A stretch of DNA of 64,000 bases, taken from contig CP075494.1 of assembly GCA_021613535.1 (NCBI GenBank), positions 496,001 through 560,000 of the forward strand. The letters are read 5' to 3'. This DNA is from Adineta vaga. Lineage: Eukaryota; Animalia; Rotifera. Positions 1-54,196 of this stretch are shown in pieces. The stretch's first letter is position 1. Each line of letters starts with the position of its first letter. The notes beneath the pieces are model-generated. The model ran no database searches. It was not told the DNA's origin and was given only the letters and a program-made list of their open reading frames with translations. The translations under genes and the position numbers were made by a program.

Positions 1-185
1 AACTCAGCCATTTGTTGAGAGATCATTCTCATCTTCGAACTCGACCGAGATATTAATGAGACAATTCTGTGCACAAAGTTTCAGCTCAATCGAATGTAGT
101 TGTGAAGAGTTATCGTGTAAACGGCCGGACGGACGGACATACAGATCGATTATAGTAGTGTACTCACTTTTTGAGTACACAACAA
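1..185 (-). mobile_element. End of HINE/DINE-1-like non-autonomous Helentron-type element (copy of 45013-45197)
   Basis: (CGGA)n microsatellite followed by catacagatcga, then the terminal inverted repeat gtgtactca-ctttt-tgagtacac. Confidence 0.55.
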
Positions 186-208
186 GTATATTGATTGAAT
201 ATATCGAA

Positions 209-336
209 AGGGTGTGGGTGAGGGTGTGGGTGTGGGTGGTTGTGGTTGAGGCTGTGGAAGGATGCAAGCCAGTATCTCTATTCACCCAAACCCTCACCCA
301 CGCCTGCACCTTCATCCACACCCACACCCACACTCT
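209..336. repeat. Telomeric-repeat palindrome (TGTGGG/TGAGGG arm, spacer, CCCACA arm)
   Basis: agggtgtgggtgagggtgtgggtgtggg ... catccacacccacacccacactct. Weaker copies at 512-555 and 584-640. Confidence 0.85.
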
Positions 337-1181
337 AAACGCGTAGTCCCATCAGCGCATGCATCTCCTCCATCAAAAATCGTCACACTAACGAAAATAA
401 CTCCAAAATAAAATCACACAAACAGATAAAAATGAAAATGATTCATACTGTATGTTTCGGTTCTGCGTCACTCTCAATCACACATTGTGAGAATGAATGA
501 AAGTAGACGCAAGGGTGAGCGAAATAAAAATATCCGAAACCCTCACCCTCACCCAAATTTCCTTAATATTTATCTCGGCGCTATGGGTGAAAGTTTAGAA
601 AACTGAAGGATACTGCCATTCACAGCCTCACCCACACCCAACAAACTTTTCCTCTATAAAAAAAAACTTTCTCAATATCTGTTCTGCAAAACAAAATATA
701 GGAACGTGATATAAAGAGAAATCGTGACAAAAAATGATATTTAACAAATTCTAGTAAATATTTCAAATTAATATATATTTTATTATTGATCTTAATCATT
801 CATTGACAAAGAAAATTCATACTTTGTTTTGACATAAAACATGTTCTATGATTCATCAAAGTTCTTACGAATTATGATTTTCATAAACGAAAAATATGAA
901 TTATTTTTACGAACTTAATTAAATTCTATTCAGTTAAACTAATTAAGTTTCTAGACTATTTAAATTCAAAAGGAAAAGCTCTTCGAAAAATATGTTTTCT
1001 TTTTTTCCTATATGATGCCTAGAATAAATAGAGAGAAGAAAGAAAAAGAAAACTATAAATTAAGAGGAAATCAACGATCAATGTCACTTTTTTTTACCAA
1101 ACAAGAATATTATAATCAATTATTAGTATATTCTAACATTAATACAAAACATTTGGATTATAAAACAATATCGTCTCAAAC

Positions 1182-4100
1182 ATGTGCAACTTCTACATAT
1201 TCGTCAGTATTTTTCTGATTCTTATTAATCCAACATCAGGTAAATAGTCTTATTTAGATAGATTTTGTATTTGGTATTTGTCCCACGAACGAGTCCTATT
1301 AATTATTAACCATCTATTCTATAATCCTTTATTATACAATATATTCACGCCATGATACATCTCAATACGAATATTGATTTCTAAAAATGTGTGATATTTG
1401 CGTCTATGTTTAACATTCATAAAAATGAACAGCATTCTATAAAATGAAGGTCAATACTTATACTAGAGAAAACGTCTTCAAATTTTATTCTAAGGTTCTA
1501 TAGAGAATGCAATTCATTTTCAGTAAAATTTTTCTCCTATTAGTCTAAATATTCTATCTATTTTTATATGTTAAAATTGAGATTCAGTTGAAAACTTTCT
1601 TCAATTCAATACAAGATAAGAAAAGCTACAGAATGTTGAACTCTTTTCTAATAGTAGAGAAAAACAAGTTCTGAAAATCGAAAATTATATGTTAGCCATT
1701 TAAATTCAATCCTTTATTTTTCGTTTTAAAATATTTATCTTTATATCAGTTTTAATCTTAATCGGTTATGTATTTATCAATACTACTATAAGACCATATT
1801 AATCATTATCTTATTCTGAATCAGCCAATGTTTTTTTTATAACATAATAAACAAAGTAACAAAAACATTAGTATAACGGATACGACTATGTCGGAAGATA
1901 TGTTTTACAATACTAAAAAGAACTGTACAAAAATAAAAAGCATAGTTCTAGTTTTTCCGAGATTATCATCTACGTTTGTTTATTTTCTCCTAGCTATTTC
2001 ATTCAATCAACCAAAATTTTGTCCAACAGCAGCTTGGAATAGAAATCCAGTCACTTTTGCTAATCAATCAGTAGTTGGTATACGTCCTGGCGCCATCTTT
2101 ATCAATACAAATAATACAATATTTGTCGCTTATCGACAGACAAGTCAGATCTTGATATGGAATGAAAATAGCACTATACCAACTAAGACAATTTCAGGCA
2201 ACTTTTGGAGTCCTAGCTCTATCTTCGTTACACAAAATGGTGATATTTATATCGACGATGGTCTCAAGAATGGTCGAGTACAAAGATGGATCGCAAGTAA
2301 TGACACATTTGTCACTGTCATGAATGTTAATTCGTCGTGTCGTGGTCTCTTTATTGATCTCAACAACAATTTGTACTGCTCGATAAATAATAAACATCAA
2401 GTTGTGAAAAAGTCATTAGATGATCTTGTGATGAAAACAATTCCAGTTGCTGGAACAGGTAATGAAGGATCTGAATCGAATCAACTCAGTAGTCCTGGTG
2501 GAATATTTGTTGATGTTAACTTTGATTTATATGTGACCGATTGTGGCAATCATCGAGTTCAGTTATTTCCATTAGGAGAATCAAATGGAATCACAGTCGT
2601 TGGTGAAACTTCAGCAAGTCGAACAATTATACTCAATTGCCCTAGCGCAGTTGTGTTAGATGCTGACAAATATTTATTCATTACAGATCTCGTTAGTAGT
2701 CGTATTTTTGGCGGAGGAGCATATGGTTTTCGTTGTTTAGTTGGATGTTATAGGGATGGCTCACACACGAACCAATTAGACTCTCCTTATTCTTTTAGTT
2801 TCGATCGATCCGGTAATATGTTTGTGATTGATTCCAGTCACCATGGAATTCGAAAGTTTGTGTTGTTGGAAAGTCCTTGTGGTAAGTTGAGAATTGAATA
2901 TTTTAAGTGAAGAAAAAAGATTTTCTCCACTATGATTATAATATATAAAAAACGGATCAGTTAAATATTTAGACCAATGTGAGCTATGAGATATAGGAAA
3001 ATATATTACGCACAACGATGGATGATTTTACTCAGTTATATAAAAAATAACGTTTCTCAAGAAGACAAAAATAAAAATCCATGCTCTACTTTATTTCTTC
3101 TGGGGGATATTGTATTAATATACAATCATTTCATTTAGAAAAATCTTTCTTTGCATCTCTCTTGGTACCCTTGAATCATGAGTTGTGATATCATTTTCTT
3201 TTGTTACTAATAGAATCTCCAACAGAAATTTCTCTTATATTACATTTGTTTTGTATTAAAGTATTGAACCATTGATATGTGATGATTTCAAGCATCTAAT
3301 TCAGTGAGTATTCTTCTGAATATGGCTGACTTTCATGAGTACATATTTATTATTATCAATAGTGATTAAGTGTTGTCATCGTAGAACGATCGTATTATAA
3401 ATCCTTTTTGTTGGTGACGATGAGGTTCATCAAGATAAATCCATAGTCAAATAAAATAATTTCATTTTATGATCAGAGAATTTTTTGTCATTTATTGAGA
3501 TCGATTAAAGCGATAACACAAAAGTTCTCACATATTAAGCAACACAATTCAATATTTTATTTTATTGTTCAACAAATCCATTTTTGTTCAGTATAAATAT
3601 AATTTCTTTAGAGATTTCGTTGAATATTGTTATGCGTCAGTTATCGTGAAATATCATCGACTCATAATTCTTAAGTCATGATTACGTCGTATCAATGTTT
3701 ATTTTTTATGATAAAATGTGAATTTCATCATCGCTTTATCTTCGACTAAAACATTTTTCTGCGAAGGAACTGAAAATAAATTGGTATCTGATATTTGAAA
3801 CATGAAAATATAGATCTGTATGAGAAGTAAAATTTATTCTTAACTTTTTTTTAATGTAATTCAGGCAGCTTAATACACGAATAATACCGTGACTTTTTAA
3901 ATTGAAAAGTATGAAAAAGGTTTTGCATCTATATTGATTAGAAACACAAAAGCGTCTTTTATTATATCGAATTGAACTTCTTATTGAACACTATAACATG
4001 AAGTAGATTGCGATCGAGTTAAATATAGTACTATACACTTTCTCATAACTGTAGTTGATGATTTCCATTGATGTTTAATGTTTTCTTTCAAAATTGATCT

Positions 4101-7100
4101 AAAAGTCTGTAGAAACTTTTAATATATCATTTTGAATCTTCGAAAAGAAAGGTATAGTTACAAATAAACATTTAAACAAAAGATTCGAATTAACACTTGC
4201 AGATTCTTATCGGATATATTTATTTCCGAAAGTAAATAGCTACATATAGGCGAAAACTAGATGTATGTTGTCAATACCACTTTGTTTTCTAATATTTAGT
4301 TATTTTCTTTAAAAAGACGAATTTCTTAAATTAGTTATTTTTTTAAAACTGTTCTTTCTCTAATCCGTATCCCCTTTCTTTGAGATTCAGATTTTTCAAA
4401 ATAATTGAGACATTGGTTTTATTCATTCTCATTCTTAAATTTTATCTATCTGTCTTTTATTTTTTCTAGTTACTTCTTCTAAACAATTACAATTTTGTCC
4501 AACAGCAGCTTGGAATAGAAATGCAATTACTATTGCTAATCAATCAATAGTCGGTAGATATCCTGGAGCCATCTTTATCAATGCATATAATACAATATTT
4601 GTTGCCAATCAAGAGGCAAAACAGATCTTGATATGGAATGAAAATAGCACTATACCAACTAAGACACTTTCAGGCAACTTCCAGAATCCTGGCTCTATCT
4701 TCGTTACACAAAATGGTGATATTTATATCGACGATGGTCTCAAGAATGGTCGAGTACAAAGATGGATCGCAAGTAATAATACATTTGTCACTGTCTTGAA
4801 GGTTTACTCGGCGTGTCATGGTCTCTTTATTGATCTCGACAACAATTTGTACTGCTCGATAAATATTATGCATCAAGTTGTGAAAAAGTCATTAGATGAT
4901 CCTGTAATGGAACCGATTCCAGTTGCTGGAACAGGTGATGACGGATCTGCATCGAGGGAGCTCAATAGTCCTGGTGGAATATTTGTTGATTTTAACTTTG
5001 CTTTATATGTGACCGATTGTGGCAATGATCGAGTTCAGTTATTTCCATTAGGAGACTCAGATGGAATCACAGTCGCTGGTGAAACTTCAGCAAGTCGAAC
5101 AATTGTACTCAATTGCCCTAGCGCAGTTGTGTTAGATGCTGACAAATATTTATTTATTGCAGATCTCTTGAATCATCGTATTGTTGGTGAAGGAGCATAT
5201 GGCTTTCGTTGTTTAGTTGGATGTTATGGGGGTGGCTCGCAAATGGATCAATTAGGCTCTCCTTATTCTTTTAGTTTCGATCGTTCTGGTAATATGTTTG
5301 TCAGTGATCAACTGAATAGTCGAATTCAAAAGTTTGCGTTGTTGGAAAGTTCTTGTGGTAAGTTGAAAATAGTCGAAGAATTCCAATAGTTTGAAGACAG
5401 AAGAAAGAGATAGACTGGATTTCTATTTTTGTTATATATTTGTGAAGACTTTTAATAAATTCTAAAATAAAAGAGAAATGCAAGAAATATGACAATATAA
5501 GACGTATATTAATCAGATGGATTAACAAAAAACACGAAAAACGAGAGATAAAATCTTGATTGTACAAAAAGATTTGAGAAGTAGTGTAATAAGAGTTAAA
5601 TATTAGTTTATACGTATAATATTGAACACATATGTACATTCAAATGAAGGAATTAAAATTACAGGTTAATAGACAATTATGAACAAGACTGATGAAGCGT
5701 GTCAGTCTTTGTTGGCTTCATATATGAGCAACGAAAGGGACATCAGCGAAAGAAGACGAAAGAAAGAGAGAATAGAGAAAAAGTGACCTTCGTGGGAGTC
5801 GAACCCACATCTTCTGCTATCCGGGCAGATGTCCTAGACCAGTTAGACCAGAACGACCATCTTAATCTCAAGCTTAGCGTTGTGTGATTCACACAAACGC
5901 TAACAGTCTTCTATCGATTCTGATCTTAATTTCAAATTTTTAATTCTGAAATAACTTAGGTTTCGACTATTTATATTTCTACTGAGCAATTGAGTATGTC
6001 GAATGTTAAAGAAGTGAAATACTAATTAAATTTTTATAAATTTTATTTTTATATTCTTTCTTTTATCTTCAGATATTGTACCTAATCAACCCAAGTTTTG
6101 TTCAACAGCTGTTTGGCATCGCAATGGATCTACATTTGCAAATGAAACAACACTGGGATCTAAGCCTCGCACTATTGCGATCGATGCGAAGGATTCCGTT
6201 TATTTTATTCATTCAGAAAGAAATGAGCTTTTGGTATGGTGCAATGATAGTATCAATCCAATAAAAAACATTTCTGGTAACTTCTCCAATCCATCATCCA
6301 TTTTCGTCACAACAAATGGTGATGTTTATATTGATAATGGTCAATTGAATAGTCAAGTCGTTCAATGGACACCAAATACTTTTAAATTTACCACTGCTAT
6401 GGATGTTTTCTCAGCATGCTTGTGTCTCTTTATCGATATTAATTATGATCTCTACTGTTCAATGCATGATCGTCATCGGATTGCGAGAAGGCCGCTATTG
6501 GATCGTTTTATGTCGGTGAACATTGTTGCTGGAACAGGTAGCGAAGGATCCAGTTCGGATGAACTTAATCATCCTAAAGGTATCTTCGTTGACGTAAAAT
6601 TCAATTTATATGTAGCAGATTGTGGAAATAATCGAATTCAAGTATTTAAACCAGAGCAGTCGGATGGTATTACAATTGCAGGTGGTAGTTTATCAAGTCA
6701 AACAGTTACTCTTAATTGTCCAAGTGGAATCGCATTAGATGCTCAGAAATATCTATTTATTGTGGACAGTAGAAATCATCGTATTATCGGTCAAGAACAA
6801 GATGGTTTTCGATGTTTACTCGGTTGTTATGGACAGGGCACTCATTCTACACAATTATCATTTCCATCAACTCTTACTTTCGATCGTTTTGGTAACATGT
6901 TTATTTTAGATCAAGGAAATAATCGAATTCAAAAATTTCAATATTTAGAAAATACTTGTGGTATGTTTTATGAAAAATCGATAGTATATAAAAGAATAAA
7001 GGTGTTAGCTCGTAAAAAAGTAGGATGTAAGTGTGGATATAGAGAGACGACTCCTTCACCCACACTCTTCCACATTAGATTGAATTCTAACTTTTGAATA

Positions 7101-9208
7101 TAATTCAAACAAATTGTGTACTTTGTAAATAATTGATTTTATTTTTGTATTTTATAGATACATCATCGATTACTGACACACAATATCCATCTGCACTGAA
7201 AACCACAAGTGAAATGTATTTTCGACATTGTAACTTCGAAAAATTTTATTATGAAGCTCTTGAGATCTCTGTATCAGAGATCTATTCTTACAATATACTA
7301 AGTAGTAGCAATGACAAAATTAATTTATATGGTTATATCTATGAAAATAATTTCAATCCACTTGCTCCACTTGAAAATTTACTTGCAGAAAATAATGATA
7401 TTAGTGAAACTAACCATCAATTTAAACTTAGAGTTCCTCTTTACGTCAACATTACGTATATTTTAGTAGTAACAACAAATTCTCCTGAAGATATTGGTGA
7501 ATTTAAACTCAATTTCATCGGCTGGAAAAATATCAATATCACGCGTCAAAGTAAGTGAATATATCTTCTTAATTGATGCCATCAATGTAAAATATAGTCA
7601 AACAAGTAGAATTTTTTCTTATTCAAAGTAAAATGTTCATAATAACTTCTGAATATTCTTTCTTTGATTATTTAAATAGTAATACCACTCAACAATCATT
7701 TAAATTATTCATCAGAGTTCACTTTTACTAGTACAATGTATTATCGTGATTGTCGAATACCAAAATGTTACTATGAAACATTAGAAATCAATGTAATTAC
7801 AACAGGTATATATGTTTTATGGAGTGAGAGTAATATGGATATGTATGGATACATTTACAAAGATGATTTTGATTCGTTAAAAACATCAGAGAATTTACAC
7901 TTAGAACATAATGGAACATGTAATGAATATCAATTTAAATTTATTACTAATCTTAACAATTATACAAAATATATATTGGTTATAACAACATATTATCCAT
8001 ATACTATGGGAAAGTTCTCTATTTTTATATCCGGTCCGAATAATGTTAGTCTTAATCGTTTTTGTGAGTATCTCTATAGTTTTTTTAATTAATATAAACA
8101 TATTTTCAACTTGTATATGAACTCTTTAGATCCAAAATTTGGTAGTTGTATTGGTGGTGATCAATGTAATTTTTATGTGAAAAGTGTTGGTTTGACGTTG
8201 GATGATATTTTGCATGATGAACTTCGTTCAAATAAACCTTTGAATGATCAATCCATCTCTATTAAATTAAGTGCAGCTCTAACAATAATTATGTTCGTTG
8301 CAGGTTTAATTAATAGTATTCTTTCTTTTCTTACATTTCAAAATAAAGATGCACAACAAGTTGGATGTGGATTATATCTTCTAGCATCATCAATAACTTC
8401 TCTCTTAACGATTATTATGTTTACAATAAAATTTTGGTTTCTTGTTATTACTCGAATTAATGTTTCAATTATTGATCTATCGGTTTTTCAAAGCGGTTGT
8501 AAATCTATTGAACCTCTTCTCAAACTTTTTCTATATTTCGATAATTGGCTCAATGCTTGTGTTGCTATTGAACGAGCATTTCACGTTTTCAAAGGAATTA
8601 ATGTTAATCGAGAGAAGAGTAAAAGTATTGCTCGATGGATTATTCTTATTTTACCATTCTGTATTATGGGTACTCTTATTCATGAACCAATCTTTCGCAA
8701 ATCCTTTGAATATCCATCAGAAATGAAGAGAAATGAATCAAATCAAACATATACAAACAAAACTGATGAAGAAGTAACAACATATCGGCCAGTACAATGT
8801 ATTGTTGAATATCCTCGTTCTATTCAAGATTATAATACGATCATTTTATTTTTTCATCTTGTTGTTCCATTTATTGCTAATTTTTGTTCAGCTCTCTTCA
8901 TCATCTTTGGTGCTGCTCGACAACGATCAAAAATACAAAAAAATCAAAAATACATAGATCATGTTCGTACACAATTTATTGAACATAAACAAATAATCAT
9001 TAGTCCTATTGTTTTACTTACTTTATCATCACCACGTTTAATCATTGCATTACTTCCTGGATGTATTAAAATATCACAAAATTTATGGATATATTTATCA
9101 GCTTATTTTATTTCATTTATTCCATCAGTGCTTATTTTTATGATATTTGTTTATCCTTCAGAAATATACATGAAAGCATTTAAACAGTCGGTAACTATTA
9201 GTCGTTGA
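1182..9208 (+). CDS. Signal peptide + 3 NHL beta-propellers + 2 PPC-like domains + rhodopsin-like 7TM receptor, about 1525 aa. Exons 1182-1239, 1994-2881, 4470-5357, 6073-6960, 7158-7550, 7680-8063, 8130-9208
   Basis: Exon 1 reads MCNFYIFVSIFLILINPTS. All six introns are GT-AG, phase 1, and join in frame. NHL motifs (PxGIFVD..LYVADCGNxR.Q). The last exon has seven hydrophobic segments with ACVAIERA at the DRY position. Confidence 0.88.
5700..5905 (-). mobile_element. 206-bp LTR-like element (TG...CA) carrying a tRNA-like gene, inside intron 3
   Basis: The minus strand starts TGTTAGCGTTTG and ends CAAAGACTGACA (imperfect terminal inverted repeats). It has a 5' hairpin. No clear TSD. Confidence 0.55.
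5784..5857 (-). tRNA. tRNA-like sequence (non-canonical, nominal anticodon GGA), probably element-derived
   Basis: D arm GTCT..GGAC, anticodon stem TCTGC/GCAGA with loop CCGGATA, T arm GTGGG-TTCGACT-CCCAC, followed by CTTTTT. The acceptor stem has two mismatches in this copy. Confidence 0.7.
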
Positions 9209-10701
9209 CAAACTCATCGACAATAAACGTCGTTTTTACGATACAATATACCGAACTTATTGTCTATAGAGAGGGCATAAAATACTATATCTTGACTTTC
9301 TTATTATTTGCTTATTGCTTGTTCCCATTTTATTTCTAATCAATTTAATAAAAATGAACTCTAAAATCGAACATCTATCTTGAGGATGTGAGTGACGGTT
9401 TTACCACCATTCACACTGACAATCTCTTTTATCAATATCACATACATTTGAATCATTAATCAAAGTTCGAATAACCATTACGCATTAAAATTGTTTTTAG
9501 ATTTCTTTCACTTTTTCTAACTTAGATAGAATATTTTAAGATCCTTTTAGTTTCCAATTTATTATAAATTCTTTGTTCCATTCTTATGTTTTGATTTCTT
9601 TTATTCATATTTGTTATTATTGCTCGTCATTTTTATATTCATATGGTTGACTTTCTTCATCGAAATAGAAAATTCAGAAAAGAAACATGTGCCAAAGCAA
9701 TTTTAGTTAATTCGAGTTGGAAGTGTCATACTTTTGAACACATGTTCGACAGATAGCACAACGAATTGAGGAAAGCTGTCTAACACAGCGTTCCGAGTGA
9801 CATGATTCACATGAAATAGGACATTCATCAATCATTGCTTTTCCTTTATTGAACACTGCAAGAAGAAAACAGTTTTCGTCTCTATCAAGTTGTATTTATC
9901 GCTCTAACTGTTGCCGAGTTAATTGTTTATCATTTGGTGTTGAAGGAAATCTCTATGTTACTGATGTTTGGAATTATTGAATTCAAAGATTTGATTTAAT
10001 TTTTTAGTAAAAGAAGATTTTTGAATAATTTATTTTCGAAGAGTAGGATATGGGTGTTGATGTACTCATTATAAAATTCAAACGATTTTATTTTGAGGGT
10101 GTGGGTGTGGGCGTATTACTGGAAAATAGAATAAACAGTTTTGCATCTGTTTAAACGAACACTAGCGCATATGCAGTGGAAAACAGCAAGTGAATTACCA
10201 TCGGTTATACACACTGCCTTTGGTTCAATAAGATGCTGTGCATCTGAACAAGTCATTGCAATTTCTCGTGCTCTCAAGCCTTATGCCTTTATCTAGTATT
10301 TGAAAGTAAACTCTGTTATATATTTATCATGCTCATTTACCCAGGTCAATAATTCCGATGCTTGATTCGATCGGATTTTGAGTGACGGAATTGCAACGGA
10401 AGCCGACAGATAAATGATTCAGTTGTTACAAATTTTATGAGTATTGTTTTAAACTATACTAAATATGATCCTTCGCACGTGTCAGATCTGACTGTCGTAA
10501 ACTATATAGGATCCTATAAGAAACGGTCATGTGGCATTGTTCGTATGAATGTGATGAAAGAAACTATTGCCAAAAAAAGGCTAAACTCTACCAATGATCA
10601 GAAACAGAATAACAATGGATATCAATTTATTCTTTTATTTTGAGAATATAATTTTCTAATATCATTCCTAACATTCATCTATGAACACGTATTAGAAAGG
10701 A

Positions 10702-13700
10702 TCATTCTTTCAAACATATTAATTTATGTTTATATAGTTTCCAGTCCATTGTTTGACATTTTTTTGTACAATAACGTGCTCGTTTACAATTACCACAGCT
10801 ATAATGCGCATTTGCTTTTCCACAACATCGGCACATATTAACAATATATTCAGATTCATTTTGCATAATAATTGATGAAAAATCATCAATACGAATCACT
10901 GGTTTCTTATCACTTGCACCTATTCGTAAATATGGATTGATAATATTCATTTTATTTCCAATTTGAAATTTTTTTTTAATTAAATATTCTCCTTGTTTTT
11001 CAGGAAAAACATAAATGCATATTTTTTTATAATCACAATGTTCATCTTCTATCATTAATTGGATGGATGGAGTCCATGAATATGCTTCTCCAATAATTGT
11101 AACAGAAAGGACATGTTGTTCGTAAACATGGTCCTTTGTTGAATTCATTTCTTTAAATGTAATAGATTTTAATCCAACCAATGATTTCGCTGTTCGTTGA
11201 GAAAATGAAGCTTTGTATGTAAATGATCCAGAAGCAATAGGGGATTTATTTTTTATTTGTAACAATGTTTTTTGCCATTTACGTTGTTCTACTATAGCTT
11301 CAATCCGAGCTGGATCTTCCAGTCGTGCTTTATTTTCCTTAGCAAGAGTAGACAATTTTGTTTTGATCGAAAATAATAAATCAAGCTGAAGTTTAATAGG
11401 AGTTTTCAAGCTAGAATCATAAGGTAAAAAGCATGGTAGTTGCAGTTTTTCTGCTTCTTCACCCTTTTCGTATATTTTTATAGCGTCTTCTAAACGTTGA
11501 TCGTTTTTTCGCGCCAGAGAGCAGGTAGCCATTGCATAATATGAAGCGGGTACTTTTCGGTGATCCTGAGGTGCAACGGCAAGAAATGCGCGATATGCTT
11601 CGATGGCTTCATCCATATCCTTGTTGAGCAGACGTAATGCACCAGCTTTATCATACAATAACGTACAAGAGTTTGGATCTATTTCTAATCCAAGATTAGC
11701 ATTGTACAATGTATCTTCATAATGTCCTGGGAAACCATTCATTGAGGCACTTGTCTCGAAAAAATGAATTGATTTTGGATATTTTTGTTTGCATAGACTA
11801 AGAAAGTTAATAAGCAATGTTTGCGAATCTAAATTAAGATGAGCATAACATGTTCGAGTATCATCGTCAAGTTGTGACACAGTAGTATTGCATCGACGAA
11901 GAACACGATCTACAAGATCTTCAAGTTTATTGCGTATCTCTAAACTTGGATATTTAGCAACTATATGTTCAATTCGATAACATTGTGAAAGTTTGTGTAT
12001 AATAAGATTCTCTTCATCTTCTGTCAATGTATCATTCTGTGTGAATATATATAATGCTTCTAAAAAATGTCTTAAAGCGTCACTCATAATTCTTGCTGTT
12101 TTTGAACCACGATTGGCATATTCAAGTAACATACGATAATCGTAAGAACTCGATCCATTCATTGCTGTTGATGCGGATGTGGTTTTCTTCATCGAACTGA
12201 AAATTTCGAATATTTTATCACTAATTGGCAATATATCTGGGGAAACTCTACTAAAAATATAATGTTTTGCTTGTAAGTCTTCTTCAAAACCACTATCAGC
12301 TAAAGCAACTATATGACCTGCCTGGCATGCTCGATCATACCATATTTTTGCCATTGGGAACTTAGCTCTACGAGTTAATAGTATTGCTAAATTATACATC
12401 GCATTTGAATCACCTTGTTCAGCTGCTTGTTCAAATATTTGTTCAGCTTTGTCAAGATCCATTATAACACCACTACCATTTTCATATAGTAAAGCTAAAC
12501 TATTACCTGATTGAACATTTCCATGATCAAAAGCACGTTTATACCAACATGCTGCAGTTGCTAGTCTTTTGCTAACCACGACACCTTCAGCATATCGAAC
12601 ACCTAAAGCATGTTCCGCTTCTGCCACACCTGGATTTCGCAAATTTTTTGATTTTGGATACATTGGCGGTTGTGAAGCTGCTTTTTCATAAAGCTTTTGT
12701 GCTAAATCATGATCTTTTTTTACACCTAGACCACGATCAGTCAATCGAGCTAAATTAAACATTCCTTCTGCATTGCCTTGTCTTACTGCTTTTGCAAAAT
12801 ATCTAGCGGCTTCTTCATAATTCTGTTTAACATCGCAATCTCCAAGTTCATATTTATATCCTTTTTCTACATCTGCTAAAGATGAATCATTTTTCTGAAG
12901 TAATTTATAAGTATTATGTATTTCTTCGGGATCTATTCCAAATATACTTAATTGTTCGAGTATTGATTTTGGTTTTGTTTCTATATCCAAATGTTCTTGT
13001 CGTTGTTGTCGACCAAATTCATAATGACTTTCATCCAATGCTTTTTTTACCTCATTGTTTGTAGGATCAAGAGCGAATGCTCGTTCATATGAATTAATCG
13101 CTTTTTCATGTTCATTTAACGCAGCGTAAACCTTTCCCACACGAAAATGTCCTTTCCACCATGAAAGCCAAAGTTTTCGAGCATGTTTTGCATCTTGCAA
13201 TGCACGGTATTGTTCATTCTTTGCATCATCAAGTTCCCACTTTCTACTAAGACCTTCTTTTTGTTCAAACAGTGCAAGACGACTGGCAGCCATATTACAA
13301 AAGAAAATAGCACGATTATGAGCCCCAACACCTGGTAAAACTGTTGCTTTCGTAAAATATTCAATTGCTTCAGAAAATTGACCATCCTTATGAGCATGAG
13401 TACCCAGAGAATTCAACCGTAGTGCTTCTTTTACATTGATTTCATTTATTTCTTCAGTGGATGATTGGAAAATGCTGTCATCTTTGAGTTGATCTATTTC
13501 AAAATTGTTATCACCAAATGCAATTAGAATTGTCGATATATCAATCCACAATTGATTAAATTCAATATTATCAACAGATTTTGATGCACAGTGTGCCATT
13601 TTATTTCGAATATCTCTCAATTGTTCTAAAAGTTTCTTTTCTTCATTAAGTTCTTGTATTTCAATTGAATTTAATGTTGTTGGACGATTACTATAAATTA

Positions 13701-24126: not shown

Positions 24127-25205
24127 ATGGATAACAATCAGAATGAAAGTGAGCTTCTCGTTAAAAACAACTATTTACAAAAATTGTGGCGCCATCGGCG
24201 AGTTAAAATCATTTGTATAGCTTGTATTATTATAGCAGTTTTTGTAGTAATGATTTCTCTGTTATTAAAATTCGTTGTTTTTGCACCGATCAAGCCAGTA
24301 AGCTCTACCACAATCACAACAACAACGACAATAATATCGACTTCAACAACATCGAGTTCAATATCAACAATGACGACGACAACAACAACTACTACGACCA
24401 CCACTCAACAATCACGTAAGATTTAAAGAAAACCTATGTTTAACCAAGTATATTTAATTATGATTAGTTATATCTCACGGTAATCTCTATACCTAGATAA
24501 ATGTTATATTTTAAACTGAAAAGATGTTTGTCTTACAGAATCTAAAAAAATTTCGTTGATTATTATATACGCTTGAGGATCATATAATATTCATAAGATT
24601 AACAAAATCAATATATTTTCAAGCACTTTTTTCTAGAATGGTCTAATACTGGTAATATGAACAGTCCACGAAGTGAACATACAGCATCGGTTTTAGCAAA
24701 TGGAAAAGTATTAGTGACGGGTGGATATAATTATAATCGTTCTTTAAATAGTGCTGAAGTGTATGATCCATTGACAGAAACATGGACAATTACTGGTAAT
24801 ATGCATACCGCACGATACGGACACACATCATCCATCTTAACAGATGGAAAAGTACTAGTTACTGGTGGAGCTAGAAATGATATGTCACCGAAAAGTACTG
24901 AATTGTATGATCCAGTAACAGGAACATGGTCTATTGTTGGTAACATGAATAAGGAACGAGTTGGTCATGCAGCTGTTGTATTATTAAATGGAAAAGTGCT
25001 AGTTACTGGTGGATCAGGTGAACGTGATTCTGAACGTAGTGCTGAGTTATTTGATCCATTAACAGGTAATTGGACATTTACTAGTGAGATGCATTTTGAA
25101 CGAGTCAGTCATACAGCATCTGCTTTACTAAATGGAAAAGTATTAGTTACTGGTGGAGAGTATAATGATATGTATATAAATTATGCCGGATTGTATGCTC
25201 TATAG
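24127..25205 (+). CDS. Type II membrane protein: TM, Thr-rich stalk, four Kelch repeats. Exons 24127-24415, 24637-25205
   Basis: Hydrophobic IICIACIIIAVFVVMISLLL, then poly-Thr, then repeats R..HTAS.L.NGKVLVTGG...SAE.YDP..W. The phase-1 intron joins in frame. Confidence 0.85.
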
Positions 25206-46194: not shown

Positions 46195-49100
46195 ATGTGC
46201 AACTTCTACATATTCGTCAGTATTTTTCTGATTCTTATTAATCCAACATCAGGTAAATAGTCTTATTTAGATAGATTTTGTATTTGGTATTTGTCCCACG
46301 AACGAGTCCTATTAATTATTAACCATCTATTCTATAATCCTTTATTATACAATATATTCACGCCATGATACATCTCAATACGAATATTGATTTCTAAAAA
46401 TGTGTGATATTTGCGTCTATGTTTAACATTCATAAAAATGAACAGCATTCTATAAAATGAAGGTCAATACTTATACTAGAGAAAACGTCTTCAAATTTTA
46501 TTCTAAGGTTCTATAGAGAATGCAATTCATTTTCAGTAAAATTTTTCTCCTATTAGTCTAAATATTCTATCTATTTTTATATGTTAAAATTGAGATTCAG
46601 TTGAAAACTTTCTTCAATTCAATACAAGATAAGAAAAGCTACAGAATGTTGAACTCTTTTCTAATAGTAGAGAAAAATAAGTTCTGAAAATCGAAAATTA
46701 TATGTTAGCCATTTTAATTCAATCCTTTATTTTTCGTTTTAAAATATTTATCTTTATATCAGTTTTAATCTTAATCGGTTATGTATTTATCAATACTACT
46801 ATAAGACCATATTAATCATTATCTTATTCTGAATCAGCCAATGTTTTTTTATAACATAATAAACAAAGTAACAAAAACATTAGTATAACGGATACGACTA
46901 TGTCGGAAGATATGTTTTACAATACTAAAAAGAACTGTACAAAAATAAAAAGCATAGTTCTAGTTTTTCCGAGATTATCATCTACGTTTGTTTATTTTCT
47001 CCTAGCTATTTCATTCAATCAACCAAAATTTTGTCCAACAGCAGCTTGGAATAGAAATCCAGTCACTTTTGCTAATCAATCAGTAGTTGGTATACGTCCT
47101 GACGCCATCTTTATCAATACAAATAATACAATATTTGTCGCTTATCGACAGACAAGTCAGATCTTGATATGGAATGAAAATAGCACTATACCAACTAAGA
47201 CAATTTCAGGCAACTTTTGGAGTCCTAGCTCTATCTTCGTTACACAAAATGGTGATATTTATATCGATGATGGTGCCAAGAATGGTCGAGTACAAAGATG
47301 GATTGCAAGTAATGACACATTTGTCACTGTTATGAATGTTAATTCTTCGTGTCGTGGTCTCTTTATTGATCTCAACAACAATTTGTACTGTTCGATGAAT
47401 GTTAAACATCAAGTTGTGAAAAAGTCATTAGATGATCTCGTGATGAAAACAATTCCAGTTGCTGGAACAGGTAATGAAGGATCTGAATCGAATCAACTCA
47501 GTAGTCCTGGTGGAATATTTGTTGATGTTAACTTTGATTTATATGTGACCGATTGTGGCAATCATCGAGTTCAGTTATTTCCATTAGGAGAATCAAATGG
47601 AATCACAGTCGTTGGTGAAACTTCAGCAAGTCGAACAATTGTACTCAATTGCCCTAGCGCAGTTGTGTTAGATGCTGACAAATATTTATTCATTACAGAT
47701 CTCGTTAGTAGTCGTATTTTTGGCGGAGGAGCATATGGTTTTCGTTGTTTAGTTGGATGTTATAGGGATGGCTCACACACGAACCAATTAGACTCTCCTT
47801 ATTCTTTTAGTTTCGATCGATCCGGTAATATGTTTGTGATTGATTACAGTCACCATGGAATTCGAAAGTTTGTGTTGTTGGAAAGTCCTTGTGGTAAGTT
47901 GAGAATTGAATATTTTAAGTGAAGAAAAAAGATTTTCTCCACTATGATTATAATATATAAAAAACGGATCAGTGAAATATTTCGACCAATGTGAGCTATG
48001 AGATATAGGAAAATATATTAAGCGCAACGATGGATGATTTTACTCAGTTATATAAAAAAATAACGTTTCTCAAGATGAGAAAAATATAAATCCATGCTCT
48101 GTTTTATTTGTTATGAAGGATATTGTATTGATATACACTCATTCCATTTAGAATAATCTTTCTTAATATCTCTCTTGGTACCCTTGAATCATGAGTTGTT
48201 GTATTATTTTATCTTTGTTACTAATAGAATCTTCGATAGAAATTTCTTTTATATAAAAGAAGTACTGAGTCATTGATTTGCGATGATATCAAACATTTAA
48301 TTCAGTGATTAGTCTTCTGAATGTGACTGATCTTTATGACTACATATTTATTATTATCAATAGTGATTAAGTCTTGTCATCGTAAAATGATCGTATAATA
48401 AATTCTATTTTTTTGACCATAGAATTCATCAAGATAAACCCGTAGTCAAATCAAGAACTGTTATTCATTGAGATCGATTAAAAAGCTACAACCCAGCATA
48501 TCTCACATATTAAGCGACATTTTTTTCCAACACAATTCAATATTTTATTTTATTGTTCAACAAATCCATTTTTGTTCAGTATAAATAAAATTTCTTTAAA
48601 GATTTCGTTGAATATTGTTATGCGTCAATTATCGTGAAATATCATCGACTCATAATTCTTAAGTCATGATTACGTCGTATCAATGTTTATTTTTTATGAT
48701 AAAATGTGAATTTCATCATCGCTTTATCTTCGACTAAAACATTTTTCTGCGAAGGAACTGAAAATAAATTGGTATCTGATATTTGAAACATGAAAATATA
48801 GATCTGTATGAGAAGTAAAATTTATTCTTAACTTTTTTTTAATGTAATTCAGGCAGCTTAATACACGAATAATACCGTGACTTTTTAAATTGAAAAGTAT
48901 GAAAAAGGTTTTGCATCTATATTGATTAGAAACACAAAAGCGTCTTTTGTTATATCGAATTGAACTTCTTATTGAACACTATAACATGAAGTAGATTGCG
49001 ATCGAGTTAAATATAGTACTATACACTTTCTCATAACTGTAGTTGATGATTTCCATTGATGTTTAATGTTTTCTTTCAAAATTGATCTAAAAGTCTGTAG

Positions 49101-52100
49101 AAACTTTTAATATATCATTTTGAATCTTTGAAAAGAAAGGTATAGTTACAAATAAACATTTAAACAAAAGATTCGAATTAACACTTGCAGATTCTTATCG
49201 GATATATTTATTTCCGAAAGTAAATAGCTACATTTAGGCGAAAACAAGATGTTTGTTATCAATACCACTTTGTTTTCTAATATTTAGTTATTTTCTTTAA
49301 AAATAAGAATTTCTTAAATTAGTTATTTTTTTAAAACTGTTCTTTCTCTAATCCGTATCCCCTTTCTTTGAGATTCAGATTTTTCAAAATAATTGAGACA
49401 TTGGTTTTATTCATTCTCATTCTTAAATTTTATCTATCTGTCTTTTATTTTTTCTAGTTACTTCTTCTAAACAATTACAATTTTGTCCAACAGCAGCTTG
49501 GAATAGAAATGCAATTACTATTGCTAATCAATCAATAGTCGGTAGATATCCTGGAGCCATCTTTATCAATGCATATAATACAATATTTGTTGCCAATCAA
49601 GAGGCAAAACAGATCTTGATATGGAATGAAAATAGCACTATACCAACTAAGACACTTTCAGGCAACTTCCAGAATCCTGGCTCTATCTTCGTTACACAAA
49701 ATGGTGATATTTATATCGACGATGGTCTCAAGAATGGTCGAGTACAAAGATGGATCGCAAGTAATAATACATTTGTCACTGTCTTGAAGGTTTACTCGGC
49801 GTGTCATGGTCTCTTTATTGATCTCGACAACAATTTGTACTGCTCGATAAATATTATGCATCAAGTTGTGAAAAAGTCATTAGATGATCCTGTAATGGAA
49901 CCGATTCCAGTTGCTGGAACAGGTGATGACGGATCTGCATCGAGGGAGCTCAATAGTCCTGGTGGAATATTTGTTGATGTTAACTTTGCTTTATATGTGA
50001 CCGATTGTGGCAATGATCGAGTTCAGTTATTTCCATTAGGAGACTCAGATGGAATCACAGTCGCTGGTGAAACTTCAGCAAGTCGAACAATTGTACTCAA
50101 TTGCCCTAGCGCAGTTGTGTTAGATGCTGACAAATATTTATTTATTGCAGATCTCTTGAATCATCGTATTGTTGGTGAAGGAGCATATGGCTTTCGTTGT
50201 TTAGTTGGATGTTATGGGGGTGGCTCGCAAATGGATCAATTAGGCTCTCCTTATTCTTTTAGTTTCGATCGTTCTGGTAATATGTTTGTCAGTGATCAAC
50301 TGAATAGTCGAATTCAAAAGTTTGCGTTGTTGGAAAGTTCTTGTGGTAAGTTGAAAATAGTCGAAGAATTCCAATAGTTTGAAGACAGAAGAAAGAGATA
50401 GACTGGATTTCTATTTTTGTTATATATTTGTGAAGACTTTTAATAAATTCTAAAATAAAAGAGAAATGCAAGAAATATGACAATATAAGACGTATATTAA
50501 TCAGATGGATTAACAAAAAACACGAAAAACGAGAGATAAAATCTTGATTGTACAAAAAGATTTGAGAAGTAGTGTAATAAGAGTTAAATATTAGTTTATA
50601 CGTATAATATTGAACACATATGTACATTCAAATGAAGGAATTAAAATTACAGGTTAATAGACAATTATGAACAAGACTGATGAAGCGTGTCAGTCTTTGT
50701 TGGCTTCATATATGAGCAACGAAAGGGACATCAGCGAAAGAAGACGAAAGAAAGAGAGAATAGAGAAAAAGTGACCTTCGTGGGAGTCGAACCCACATCT
50801 TCTGCTATCCGGGCAGATGTCCTAGACCAGTTAGACTAGAAGGACCATCTTAATCTCAAGCTTAGCGTTGTGTGATTCACACAAACGCTAACAGTCTTCT
50901 ATCGATTCTGATCTTAATTTCAAATTTTTAATTTTGAAATAACTTAGGTTTCGACTATTTATATTTCTACTGAGCAATTGAGTATGTCGAATGTTAAAGA
51001 AGTGAAATACTAATTAAATTTTTATAAATTTTATTTTTATATTCTTTCTTTTATCTTCAGATATCGTACCTAATCAACCCAAGTTTTGTTCAACAGCTGT
51101 TTGGCATCGCAATGGATCTACATTTGCAAATGAAACAACACTGGGATCTAAGCCTCGCACTATTGCGATCGATGCGAAGGATTCCGTTTATTTTATTCAT
51201 TCAGAAAGAAATGAGCTTTTGGTATGGTGCAATGATAGTATCAATCCAATAAAAAACATTTCTGGTAACTTCTCCAATCCATCATCCATTTTCGTCACAA
51301 CAAATGGTGATGTTTATATTGATAATGGTCAATTGAATAGTCAAGTCGTTCAATGGACACCAAATACTTTTAAATTTACCACTGCTATGGATGTTTTCTC
51401 AGCATGCTTGTGTCTCTTTATCGATATTAATTATGATCTCTACTGTTCAATGCATGATCGTCATCGGATTGCGAGAAGGCCGCTATTGGATCGTTTTATG
51501 TCGGTGAACATTGTTGCTGGAACAGGTAGCGAAGGATCCAGTTCGGATGAACTTAATCATCCTAAAGGTATCTTCGTTGACGTAAAATTCAATTTATATG
51601 TAGCAGATTGTGGAAATAATCGAATTCAAGTATTTAAACCAGAGCAGTCGGATGGTATTACAATTGCAGGTGGTAGTTTATCAAGTCAAACAGTTACTCT
51701 TAATTGTCCAAGTGGAATCGCATTAGATGCTCAGAAATATCTATTTATTGTGGACAGTAGAAATCATCGTATTATCGGTCAAGAACAAGATGGTTTTCGA
51801 TGTTTACTCGGTTGTTATGGACAGGGTACTCATTCTACACAATTATCATTTCCATCAACTCTTACTTTCGATCGTTTTGGTAACATGTTTATTTTAGATC
51901 AAGGAAATAATCGAATTCAAAAATTTCAATATTTAGAAAATACTTGTGGTATGTTTTATGAAAAATCGATAGTATATAAAAGAATAAAGGTGTTAGCTCG
52001 TAAAAAAGTAGGATGTAAGTGTGGATATAGAGAGACGACTCCTTCACCCACACTCTTCCACATTAGATTGAATTCTAACTTTTGAATATAATTCAAACAA

Positions 52101-54196
52101 ATTGTGTACTTTGTAAATAATTGATTTTATTTTTGTATTTTATAGATACATCATCGATTACTGACACACAATATCCATCTGCACTGAAAACCACAAGTGA
52201 AATGTATTTTCGACATTGTAACTTCGAAAAATTTTATTATGAAGCTCTTGAGATCTCTGTATCAGAGATCTATTCTTACAATATACTAAGTAGTAGCAAT
52301 GACAAAATTAATTTATATGGTTATATCTATGAAAATAATTTCAATCCACTTGCTCCACTTGAAAATTTACTTGCAGAAAATAATGATATTAGTGAAACTA
52401 ACCATCAATTTAAACTTAGAGTTCCTCTTTACGTCAACATTACGTATATTTTAGTAGTAACAACAAATTCTCCTGAAGATATTGGTGAATTTAAACTCAA
52501 TTTCATCGGCTGGAAAAATATCAATATCACGCGTCAAAGTAAGTGAATATATCTTCTTAATTGATGCCATCAATGTAAAATATAGTCAAACAAGTAGAAT
52601 TTTTTCTTATTCAAAGTAAAATGTTCATAATAACTTCTGAATATTCTTTCTTTGATTATTTAAATAGTAATACCACTCAACAATCGTTTAAATTATTCAT
52701 CAGAGTTCACTTTTACTAGTACAATGTATTATCGTGATTGTCGAATACCAAAATGTTACTATGAAACATTAGAAATCAATGTAATTACAACAGGTATATA
52801 TGTTTTATGGAGTGAGAGTAATATGGATATGTATGGATACATTTACAAAGATGATTTTGATTCGTTAAAAACATCAGAGAATTTACACTTAGAACATAAT
52901 GGAACATGTAATGAATATCAATTTAAATTTATTACTAATCTTAACAATTATACAAAATATATATTGGTTATAACAACATATTATCCATATACTATGGGAA
53001 AGTTCTCTATTTTTATATCCGGTCCGAATAATGTTAGTCTTAATCGTTTTTGTGAGTATCTCTATAGTTTTTTTAATTAATATAAACATATTTTCAACTT
53101 GTATATGAACTCTTTAGATCCAAAATTTGGTAGTTGTATTGGTGGTGATCAATGTAATTTTTATGTGAAAAGTGTTGGTTTGACGTTGGATGATATTTTG
53201 CATGATGAACTTCGTTCAAATAAACCTTTGAATGATCAATCCATCTCTATTAAATTAAGTGCAGCTCTAACAATAATTATGTTCGTTGCAGGTTTAATTA
53301 ATAGTATTCTTTCTTTTCTTACATTTCAAAATAAAGATGCACAACAAGTTGGATGTGGATTATATCTTCTAGCATCATCAATAACTTCTCTCTTAACGAT
53401 TATTATGTTTACAATAAAATTTTGGTTTCTTGTTATTACTCGAATTAATGTTTCAATTATTGATCTATCGGTTTTTCAAAGCGGTTGTAAATCTATTGAA
53501 CCTCTTCTCAAACTTTTTCTATATTTCGATAATTGGCTCAATGCTTGTGTTGCTATTGAACGAGCATTTCACGTTTTCAAAGGAATTAATGTTAATCGAG
53601 AGAAGAGTAAAAGTATTGCTCGATGGATTATTCTTATTTTACCATTCTGTATTATGGGTACTCTTATTCATGAACCAATCTTTCGCAAATCCTTTGAATA
53701 TCCATCAGAAATGAAGAGAAATGAATCAAATCAAACATATACAAACAAAACTGATGAAGAAGTAACAACATATCGACCAGTACAATGTATTGTTGAATAT
53801 CCTCGTTCTATTCAAGATTATAATACGATCATTTTATTTTTTCATCTCGTTGTTCCATTTATTGCTAATTTTTGTTCAGCTCTCTTCATCATCTTTGGTG
53901 CTGCTCGACAACGATCAAAAATACAAAAAAATCAAAAATACATAGATCATGTTCGTACACAATTTATTGAACATAAACAAATAATCATTAGTCCTATTGT
54001 TTTACTTACTTTATCATCACCACGTTTAATCATTGCATTACTTCCTGGATGTATTAAAATATCACAAAATTTATGGATATATTTATCAGCTTATTTTATT
54101 TCATTTATTCCATCAGTGCTTATTTTTATGATATTTGTTTATCCTTCAGAAATATACATGAAAGCATTTAAACAGTCGGTAACTATTAGTCGTTGA
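46195..54196 (+). CDS. Second copy of the 3xNHL - 2xPPC-like - 7TM receptor. Exons 46195-46252, 47006-47893, 49458-50345, 51061-51948, 52146-52538, 52668-53051, 53118-54196
   Basis: Same splice sites and intact frames as copy A. Amino-acid differences are concentrated in the first NHL exon. Confidence 0.88.
50688..50893 (-). mobile_element. LTR-like tRNA-containing element, copy B
   Basis: Duplicate of 5700-5905. Confidence 0.55.
50772..50845 (-). tRNA. tRNA-like sequence, copy B (better acceptor stem)
   Basis: Acceptor stem GTCCTTC/GAAGGTC with one mismatch. Same arms as copy A and a TTTTT terminator. Confidence 0.72.

What the first reader, a model, noticed from the sequence alone, without database searches (positions are those of the whole stretch)
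1182..9208. GPCR with three equal-length (888 nt) phase-1 NHL cassette exons: possible swappable ligand-binding repertoire
Seen: exons 1994-2881, 4470-5357 and 6073-6960 are each exactly 888 nt, homologous and phase 1-1. The next two exons (393 and 384 nt) are also phase-symmetric. Any subset can therefore be spliced between the signal exon and the 7TM exon without a frameshift. Read-through of the first two NHL donors meets a stop within about 10 codons, which would give secreted propellers. Established: equal-length homologous tandem exons typify mutually exclusive splicing (as in Dscam), and NHL propellers are binding scaffolds. Inference: a variable chemosensory or immune receptor system of modular propeller-GPCRs.
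Basis: partly seen in the sequence, partly recalled or inferred. Interest (0 to 1): 0.78.

Follow-up and report, generated by a model that had tools for sequence, protein, structure and literature searches.

The report
Rotifer receptor with three tandem propellers
This gene, whose named relatives are bdelloid rotifer proteins, joins three predicted propeller domains and two sandwich domains to a GPCR-like membrane domain; the three propeller exons are likely spliced in together rather than swapped, while the family varies propeller number and the likely binding face in its DNA, which would give these animals a fast-evolving set of surface sensors.

Summary
The exon anatomy is right: three 888-nt phase 1-1 NHL exons, two further symmetric exons and a 7TM exon give an open 1525-aa protein, and all 32 exon subsets stay in frame. 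The Dscam-like reading is not supported. One propeller per ~890-nt phase 1-1 exon is the norm of a large bdelloid family (44 of 49 distinct related exons). None of the four known exclusion mechanisms was found. A contig from a probable RNA run joins one propeller exon straight to the next in a relative. Relatives also carry tandem propellers with no intron between them. Early read-through stops occur at the chance rate in related DNA (21 of 36), though more often in one related ORF set (55 of 65). What holds is a variable receptor family at DNA level: 0-3 propellers and 0-5 calpain-III/PPC-like modules per 7TM gene model, gene conversion between propeller exons, and amino-acid change concentrated on the predicted top face (7 of 7 significant sites). 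No splice junction of this gene itself was seen, so N1/N2 alternation with a fixed N3 stays open (about 15%). The NHL-7TM architecture was not found in 10 paper searches.

The parts
1182..1239 (+). Exon 1: start codon and likely signal peptide (19 codons + 1 nt), phase-1 donor
   Evidence: hydrophobic stretch seen in the translation; no signal-peptide predictor was run
1994..2881 (+). Exon 2 (N1): NHL propeller, 888 nt, phase 1-1, distal type
   Evidence: (Pfam NHL E=8.6e-12)
4470..5357 (+). Exon 3 (N2): NHL propeller, 888 nt, phase 1-1, distal type, 88% nt to N1 with gene-conversion signs
   Evidence: exact 196-nt contig in probable RNA run X8 at 4544-4739
6073..6960 (+). Exon 4 (N3): NHL propeller, 888 nt, phase 1-1, proximal type; predicted complete six-bladed propeller
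   Evidence: (pLDDT 93.4, pTM 0.92)
7158..7550 (+). Exon 5 (B1): ~130-aa beta-sandwich module, 393 nt, phase 1-1
   Evidence: 48 of 130 aa identical to B2; exact 161-nt contig in probable RNA run X9 at 7160-7320
7680..8063 (+). Exon 6 (B2): ~127-aa module, predicted calpain domain III / PPC-like sandwich, 384 nt, phase 1-1
   Evidence: pLDDT 91.7; Z 12.3, rmsd 2.7, 116 aligned to calpain-7 C2-like domain; Z 10.1 to a collagenase PPC domain
8130..9208 (+). Exon 7: Cys-containing cap and rhodopsin-like 7TM domain, stop codon
   Evidence: (7tm_1 E=3e-6, 27.4 bits, under the 30.5 cut-off; relatives P0001 and P0002 pass)
46195..54196 (+). Second, intact copy of the whole gene (exons 46195-46252, 47006-47893, 49458-50345, 51061-51948, 52146-52538, 52668-53051, 53118-54196)
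   Evidence: 98% nt over 9.7 kb, 1525 aa open, 8 aa differences, 6 of them in N1

Best explanation
This is one gene for a predicted cell-surface receptor of a large bdelloid rotifer family, in which a likely signal peptide, three predicted NHL propellers and two predicted calpain-III/PPC-like sandwiches are likely spliced in together, in fixed order, ahead of a rhodopsin-like 7TM domain. Each outer domain sits on its own phase 1-1 exon (shown), the usual build of shuffled extracellular modules in animals, so domains can be duplicated, lost or recombined in the DNA without breaking the frame. The repertoire is made mainly in the genome: paralogues differ in propeller and sandwich number (shown in gene models and contigs), tandem propeller exons exchange sequence by gene conversion or unequal crossing-over (inferred), and the top faces of the propellers change fastest (shown, with faces assigned from a predicted model). 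The propellers likely bind variable outside ligands, such as microbial or environmental molecules, with several propellers adding avidity or breadth; the sandwiches would act as a stalk and the 7TM would signal through a G protein (untested).
For: Family: 356 longer relatives of the 7TM exon, every source-named species among the best 120 is Adineta, most with NHL hits. Propellers per model in those 120: 0 in 19, 1 in 59, 2 in 38, 3 in 4 (two of these four are split hits of two-propeller models); sandwiches 0-5. Length and phase are the norm: 69 of 100 full propellers are 295-296 aa; 44 of 49 distinct related exons are phase 1-1, 26 of those 44 are 888 or 891 nt. Tandem use: X5 contig (259 nt, depth 3.7) runs to the donor position 5357 as an N1/N2-type sequence and continues with 11 letters matching the N3 exon start at 10 of 11, with no intron; 9 of 59 adjacent propeller pairs in related DNA lie in one ORF less than 30 nt apart. 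Fixed position: first-position propellers cluster in the tree (17 of 18 in the main clade, SH-aLRT 92, quick tree); in 36 two-propeller models the terminal Cys is missing from the first in 34 and present in the last in 36; P0001 keeps the same three position-specific exon starts. No exclusion mechanism: against the criteria in 10.1101/133215 (passages). DNA-level change: N1 pairs with N2 within each gene, 86-nt identical run p=0.001; L007 has three propellers where the 99%-identical L008 and L009 have two, its middle one a single-switch hybrid. Top face: pN 0.145 against 0.056 bottom and 0.049 core in 22 exon pairs, top above bottom in 21 of 22, 7 of 295 sites above neutral after Bonferroni, all on top. 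Class 1-1 modules: PMC8001218 (passages).
Against: No splice junction of this gene itself was observed. The propeller-to-propeller joint is one low-depth contig of a relative about 88% alike, in a run only guessed to be RNA, and does not tell N1 from N2. The intronless tandem propellers are about three distinct genes and none was shown linked to a 7TM. The multi-propeller proteins are automatic gene models, which include all exons by default. Two unreviewed findings report exclusive splicing elsewhere in this genome. All three window propellers keep the terminal Cys, so any of them could join B1. Pooled top-face pN (0.145) only equals overall pS (0.136); the pairs are related to each other and faces come from DSSP plus recalled NHL topology. 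No ligand or G-protein evidence.
Confidence: 0.7

Rival explanations
1. N1 and N2 are alternative distal propellers (one or the other, or N2 skippable) in front of a fixed N3, giving two-propeller receptors with a swappable tip.
For: Two propellers is the common multi-propeller state (38-40 of 120 models, three in only 2). In the window, P0001 and P0095 the extra propeller groups with the distal one. N1 and N2 differ most on the top face (36 of 100 residues against 13 of 112 in the core; narrow-top dN/dS 1.9, Fisher p=0.028, one of two definitions tried). The X5 joint is compatible with it. Frames allow it. Unreviewed notes report exclusive splicing in this genome.
Against: No N1-N3 or exon1-N2 joint of this gene seen; no docker-selector signal (34 of 45 and 31 of 60 shuffles as strong); no frameshift, short-intron or U12 barrier; N2's distinct start is shared with P0001 and reads like an inter-propeller linker.
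Confidence: 0.15
2. Dscam-like three-way mutual exclusion: each transcript carries exactly one of N1, N2, N3.
For: Equal length, same frame and homology are the prediction criteria of PMC3228551 (passages); one-propeller receptors are the commonest model in the family (59 of 120).
Against: An in-frame joint between candidates rejects exclusivity by the criteria of 10.1101/133215, and such a joint was seen in a relative; tandem propellers in one ORF exist; position-specific propeller types; no mechanism found; each exon is a whole self-contained domain, so double inclusion would not break a fold.
Confidence: 0.04
3. The gene also makes secreted one- or two-propeller proteins by reading through the N1 or N2 donor to a nearby stop and ending in the intron.
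For: Stops after 9 and 10 residues; in 65 metagenome ORFs closer to this gene, 55 stop within 11 residues and many share a seven-residue tail also seen after N2; AATAAA at 3070 and 5454/5466.
Against: In related DNA 21 of 36 propeller donors and 8 of 15 sandwich donors stop within 11 residues, against 58-60% by chance; the window's own B1 and B2 donors also stop early; the 65 ORFs are related (median 65% identity among 14 checked), so the tail may be inherited intron sequence; AATAAA is common at 73% AT.
Confidence: 0.08
4. The propeller exons and the 7TM exon belong to separate genes, or the extra propellers are dead copies.
For: A broken propeller fragment lies at about 20441-20645, so dead copies occur; expression evidence is thin.
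Against: All exons are open with strong splice sites in both gene copies; core dN/dS 0.3-0.4 between N1 and N2; the last sandwich and the 7TM share one ORF in 6 of 9 adjacent pairs in related DNA; P0085 holds signal, propeller, sandwiches and 7TM in one 1339-aa record from metagenome sources (DNA not seen).
Confidence: 0.03

Closest known systems
Rhodopsin-like (class A) GPCRs with large modular ectodomains, such as GRL101/LGR types (recalled; search listing only)
   Same: A 7tm_1-type domain behind a signal peptide and repeated extracellular modules; the same bdelloid 7TM clade also carries LDLa/EGF ectodomains in ~1500-aa relatives at about 51% identity.
   Different: The ectodomain is NHL propellers plus calpain-III/PPC-like sandwiches; no LRR or LDLa hit in this protein; 7tm_1 score is under the cut-off and NPxxY is absent.
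Class 1-1 exon-shuffled extracellular multidomain proteins (PMC8001218, passages read)
   Same: Phase-1 intron after the signal peptide; every mainly-beta extracellular domain on a phase 1-1 exon; tandem duplication of modules.
   Different: NHL is not mentioned in that review (0 hits); here a whole ~295-aa propeller is a single mobile exon.
Drosophila Dscam mutually exclusive exon clusters (PMC3228551, passages)
   Same: Tandem homologous exons of equal length and frame in a surface receptor.
   Different: Three exons, not 12-48; no docker-selector signal found; a candidate-to-candidate joint seen in a relative; diversity appears spread over many paralogues.
Extracellular NHL propeller sensors: M. 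tuberculosis PknD sensor domain, teneurin NHL domain (PDB matches)
   Same: Six-bladed NHL fold (1rwl TM-score 0.72; 9ifo teneurin-like 0.74) used outside the cell on a membrane protein.
   Different: About 20% identity; those proteins are single-pass (recalled), not 7TM.
Expanded NHL and 7-transmembrane families of Adineta vaga (PMC3846280, passages read)
   Same: Both families are named as expanded and proposed to act in defence, chemosensation and signalling.
   Different: The passages list them separately; a fused NHL-7TM family, its exon build or its selection pattern are not described there.

Membership tests
Mutually exclusive exon cluster (Dscam type) | Neighbouring exons of like length, same frame, homologous | tested here: met
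Mutually exclusive exon cluster (Dscam type) | No in-frame junction between cluster members | tested here: inconclusive
   no junction of this gene seen; one N1/N2-type to N3-type joint in a relative's contig speaks against it
Mutually exclusive exon cluster (Dscam type) | Junction reads from each member bridging the others | tested here: inconclusive
   none in 4 probable RNA runs laid of 9 listed; coverage of the gene was near nil
Mutually exclusive exon cluster (Dscam type) | Frameshift on double inclusion, donor-branch distance under 50 nt, or U2/U12 mismatch | tested here: not met
   888 nt is divisible by 3; introns 1588 and 715 nt; all GT-AG with ordinary donors (criteria)
Mutually exclusive exon cluster (Dscam type) | Competing docker-selector RNA pairing | tested here: inconclusive
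   best shared duplex no stronger than shuffles, 34 of 45 and 31 of 60; only 24-nt windows in chosen intron parts, no orthologous introns to test conservation
Rhodopsin-like GPCR (7tm_1) | Pfam 7tm_1 at the curated cut-off | tested here: inconclusive
   27.4 bits against 30.5 for the window exon; 33.3 and 35 for the 78%-identical P0001 and P0002
Rhodopsin-like GPCR (7tm_1) | Seven membrane helices | tested here: inconclusive
   six hydrophobic regions above threshold; the TM3 region (about 125-150) is below it but lies inside the 7tm_1 match; the 7TM was not folded
Rhodopsin-like GPCR (7tm_1) | E/DRY-like motif and TM3-ECL2 cysteine pair (motifs recalled) | tested here: met
   ERA at residue 147 of the exon product; Cys 123 and 223
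Rhodopsin-like GPCR (7tm_1) | NPxxY in TM7 (motif recalled) | tested here: not met
   no match; a Tyr-Pro-Ser stretch at 341 instead
Rhodopsin-like GPCR (7tm_1) | G-protein coupling | not testable with these tools
   needs a cell assay
Adhesion GPCR | GAIN/GPS domain and 7tm_2-type membrane domain | tested here: not met
   no such Pfam hit for the six window modules, for 11 relatives rescanned or in the precomputed domains of 120 relatives
NHL six-bladed propeller | NHL repeats folding into one closed six-bladed propeller | tested here: met
   Pfam NHL in all three exons; N3 model with 24 blade strands, the last supplied by the N-terminus, best matches six-bladed Pizza6/PknD/TRIM71; N1 and N2 not folded
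Calpain domain III / PPC-like sandwich | Fold match over most of the domain | tested here: met
   Z 12.3, rmsd 2.7, 116 of 127 aligned (2qfe); Z 10.1 (5sv5); Foldseek E only 1e-3
Calpain domain III / PPC-like sandwich | Sequence match to Pfam Calpain_III or PPC | tested here: inconclusive
   no hit for B1 or B2; one relative, P0057, passes Calpain_III at 24 bits over a short stretch; Atlas PPC clusters at 0.87-0.89 are leads only

The most novel reading that the evidence does not exclude
Bdelloids run a variable-receptor system built on propeller-GPCRs that diversifies at two levels: in the genome, by exon duplication, gene conversion and selection on the propeller top face across many paralogues, and in RNA, by choosing between the N1 and N2 distal propellers (or releasing them as secreted decoys), so that one asexual genome fields many recognition surfaces wired straight to G-protein signalling.
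Probability: 0.17. Interest if true: 0.8.

Novelty: new variant of a known kind. Interest (0 to 1): 0.48.

Why it matters
How long-term asexual bdelloids keep up with parasites and changing environments is an open question. A large receptor family whose outer domains are single symmetric exons, whose copy number varies even between near-identical loci, and whose predicted binding face changes fastest is a concrete candidate for a recognition repertoire renewed by DNA rearrangement and gene conversion. It also adds an ectodomain type (NHL propeller plus calpain-III/PPC-like stalk) to class A-like receptors that my searches did not find described. If splicing choice were shown as well, it would be a whole-domain cassette system in a GPCR.

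Tried and rejected
No whole genome is held, so paralogues in this genome could not be counted. No RNA holder was listed for the stretch; the four best holders X1-X4 cover introns, are DNA of one sample and give no splice information; their N1/N2 mosaic contigs switch inside 45-86-nt identical runs and were set aside as possible assembly chimeras. Four of nine probable RNA runs were laid: uncovered parts say nothing; the three listed skip joints have sides of 20-26 letters, not at splice sites, and were dismissed. Intron-versus-intron BLAST gave only AT-rich low-complexity matches in the part of the output shown, which was cut; the docker-selector scan was at shuffle level. Rfam found only a tRNA and below-threshold microRNA matches to a simple repeat in 1-10000. 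The 7TM exon has no PDB sequence match at E 0.01. A giant-virus link for the sandwich module (Atlas cluster at 0.94) was not confirmed: 86 pattern matches in viral contigs, none a relative. A bacterial origin of the propeller or sandwich was not resolved. The 11:3 bias of copy-specific N1 sites towards N2 is suggestive only. The tree is the quick one; the careful search did not finish. No complex prediction was run. Look-ups of earlier findings by sequence and words found nothing. The Nature genome paper of A. vaga is not held; PMC12220480 has no NHL or GPCR mention (passages).
Full report
OBSERVATION. The exon model holds. Exon 1 is 1182-1239 (phase-1 donor); 1994-2881, 4470-5357 and 6073-6960 are 888 nt each between AG and GT; 7158-7550 and 7680-8063 are 393 and 384 nt; the last exon is 8130-9208. 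The all-exon frame gives 1525 aa, and 32 of 32 subsets of the internal exons are open. N1/N2 are 77% identical in protein, N3 is 49-50% to both, without gaps. A second intact copy lies 45 kb downstream (98% nt, 8 aa differences); whether it is a tandem duplicate or an uncollapsed haplotype cannot be told here.

WHAT THE PARTS ARE. All three 888-nt exons hit Pfam NHL. N3, folded with a 65-row alignment, is one complete six-bladed propeller (pLDDT 93.4). B1 and B2 have no Pfam hit; the B2 model (pLDDT 91.7) matches calpain domain III/C2-like and PPC/collagen-binding sandwiches (Z 12.3 and 10.1). The last exon hits 7tm_1 at E=3e-6, under the curated cut-off, which two 78%-identical relatives pass; it has an ERA motif and the expected cysteine pair but no NPxxY (motifs recalled). 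No GAIN/GPS or 7tm_2 hit was seen, so it is not an adhesion GPCR.

THE FAMILY. The 7TM exon has 356 longer relatives; of the best 120 listed, all with a species name are Adineta gene models, so the host is taken to be a bdelloid by homology. Those 120 carry 0 (19), 1 (59), 2 (38) or 3 (4) propellers and 0-5 sandwiches; two of the four three-propeller counts are split hits, and many models are partial. The same 7TM clade also occurs with LDLa/EGF ectodomains. The Atlas's nearest clusters for a full-length relative are Rotifera. In 73 metagenome loci, 100 full propeller hits collapse to 49 distinct exons; 44 are phase 1-1 and 26 of these are 888 or 891 nt (boundaries were taken as the AG/GT nearest the expected place, which leans to phase 1). 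In proteins 69 of 100 full propellers are 295-296 aa. Equal length and symmetric phase are therefore what any duplicate of this module looks like. Phase 1-1 is the known class of shuffled extracellular modules (PMC8001218, passages), and an unrelated tandem of 1245- and 1260-nt phase 1-1 exons sits in the same window.

IS IT MUTUALLY EXCLUSIVE? For: length, frame and homology are the accepted prediction criteria, and few non-exclusive exons met them on the Drosophila X (90 of 16180; PMC3228551, passages); two unreviewed notes report exclusive splicing in ion-channel genes of this genome (not tested by me). Against: of the mechanisms listed in 10.1101/133215 (passages), frameshift, short donor-branch distance and U12 mismatch do not apply, and a scan for a shared docker found nothing above shuffles (34 of 45, 31 of 60). 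In probable RNA run X5 one contig (depth 3.7, 23 differences in 188 nt from N2, where N3 differs by 56) ends its match exactly at donor 5357 and continues into an N3-like exon start (10 of 11 letters): a propeller-to-propeller joint in a relative. Nine of 59 adjacent propeller pairs in related DNA, about three distinct genes and none shown to carry a 7TM, lie in one ORF under 30 nt apart. Propellers are position-typed: first-position ones cluster (17 of 18 in the main clade, quick tree) and lack the terminal Cys in 34 of 36 two-propeller models while last ones have it in 36 of 36 (mostly one species, related genes, and the window's three all keep it). No junction of this gene was seen; only two exact exon-internal contigs at depth about 2.5 (X8 in N2, X9 in B1). 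Three-way exclusion is unlikely; N1/N2 alternation before a fixed N3 is not excluded.

SECRETED PROPELLERS? Stops follow the N1 and N2 donors after 9 and 10 residues, but also the B1 and B2 donors after 2 and 9, and not N3 (45). Chance is 58-60% within 11 codons. In related DNA 21 of 36 propeller donors (of 44; eight dropped for atypical donors or contig ends) and 8 of 15 sandwich donors stop that early.

WHERE THE VARIATION IS MADE. P0001 has the same three propellers with the same position-specific starts, yet N1 and N2 group within each gene (SH-aLRT 98 and 94), and identical runs between N1 and N2 are longer than chance (86 nt, p=0.001) while flanking introns have diverged: concerted evolution, inferred. 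L007 has three propellers where 99%-identical L008 and L009 have two; its middle exon matches the last at the first 31 informative sites and the first at the next 63, the mark of unequal crossing-over, though identical introns mean an assembly loop is possible. With faces assigned from the N3 secondary structure and recalled NHL topology, 22 disjoint exon pairs give pN 0.145 on top, 0.056 on the bottom, 0.049 in the core, against pS 0.136; top exceeds bottom in 21 of 22; 7 of 295 sites exceed the neutral expectation after Bonferroni, all on top, and 16 of 18 at p<0.01. This is a counting test on related pairs, not a codon model. N1/N2 overall dN/dS is 0.89 against 0.31-0.37 to N3.

MECHANISM. 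Shown: exon build, family-wide module-number variation in models and contigs, top-face hypervariability under the stated face assignment. Predicted: folds. Inferred: joint inclusion of the three propellers, gene conversion, ligand binding by the top faces, stalk role, G-protein signalling, and a chemosensory or defence role. Confidence 0.70; N1/N2 alternation 0.15; secreted forms 0.08; three-way exclusion 0.04; separate or dead parts 0.03.

NOVELTY. NHL and 7TM expansions in A. vaga are named separately in PMC3846280 (passages). Ten full-text searches (seven aimed at rotifer NHL, GPCR or splicing or at NHL-7TM, three at methods and background; listings only unless stated) showed no description of an NHL-sandwich-7TM family. 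The library lacks most subscription journals, the A. vaga genome paper was not held and no supplements were read; these may hold a prior mention. The proteins already stand unnamed in databases. Verdict: new variant of a known kind (modular-ectodomain class A-like receptor), interest 0.48; the splicing claim that gave the first score is unproven and, in its Dscam form, unlikely.

Noticed in passing
window 1-9689 and 45013-54686; 28524-29995 and 41644-43115: Two near-identical duplicated blocks (both 98%). In the receptor copies the differences cluster in N1 (14) and the first 800 nt of intron 2 (78 substitutions plus gaps), while other exons differ by 0-2 nt.
   Followed up: partly
window 5783-5857 (-) and 50771-50845 (-): tRNA-Ser with a GGA anticodon inside intron 3; unusual for a eukaryote (recalled), and contigs with loose ends pile up there, so possibly a tRNA-derived repeat.
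   Followed up: partly
window about 20441-20645 (+): Isolated, frameshifted 5' fragment of a propeller exon with its acceptor, 68-72% nt to N1/N3: a dead copy.
   Followed up: partly
window 56408-60705 (+): Three tandem homologous large ORFs (73-76% nt) with no Pfam hit in the two scanned; putative exons of 1245 and 1260 nt are phase 1-1, followed by a terminal one: the same build as the receptor in an unknown membrane-protein family.
   Followed up: partly
window 61237-63594 (+): A second, more distant NHL gene, followed by a Cys/Gly-rich ORF of unknown family.
   Followed up: no
window 10702-14049 (-), 15479-18073 (-), 21317-22429 (-), 24603-25205 (+), 38589-40553 (+): Neighbours: HEPN-TPR-Sel1-MYND protein, vWA protein, endonuclease/exonuclease/phosphatase, Kelch repeats and a sodium:solute symporter on long ORFs; some may be horizontally acquired (not tested).
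   Followed up: no
window 26287-26694 (+) and 26970-27869 (-): Two further 7TM-like ORFs facing each other; no Pfam hit, the first matches the receptor's TM5-7 weakly.
   Followed up: no
window 14014-14336: 323-nt imperfect inverted repeat (82%), MITE-like.
   Followed up: no
L007:2609-3499 against L008 and L009: Hybrid middle propeller exon with a single switch point: two versus three propellers at one locus.
   Followed up: yes
Introns after propeller exons, window 2882-2910 and 5358-5389; proteins P0144-P0234: Read-through tail resembling GKLKIVE-stop recurs in many related ORFs; conserved intron start, inherited sequence or a secreted-form tail is undecided.
   Followed up: partly
Proteins P0090, P0107, P0108, P0113-P0115, P0118-P0120; L031 (-): The same 7TM clade with a ~1190-aa LDLa/EGF ectodomain instead of propellers, pointing to whole-ectodomain exchange in evolution.
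   Followed up: partly
Atlas hit for P0002 residues 737-863: A 59-member cluster labelled mostly Nucleocytoviricota resembles the sandwich module at 0.94; no relative found in viral contigs.
   Followed up: partly
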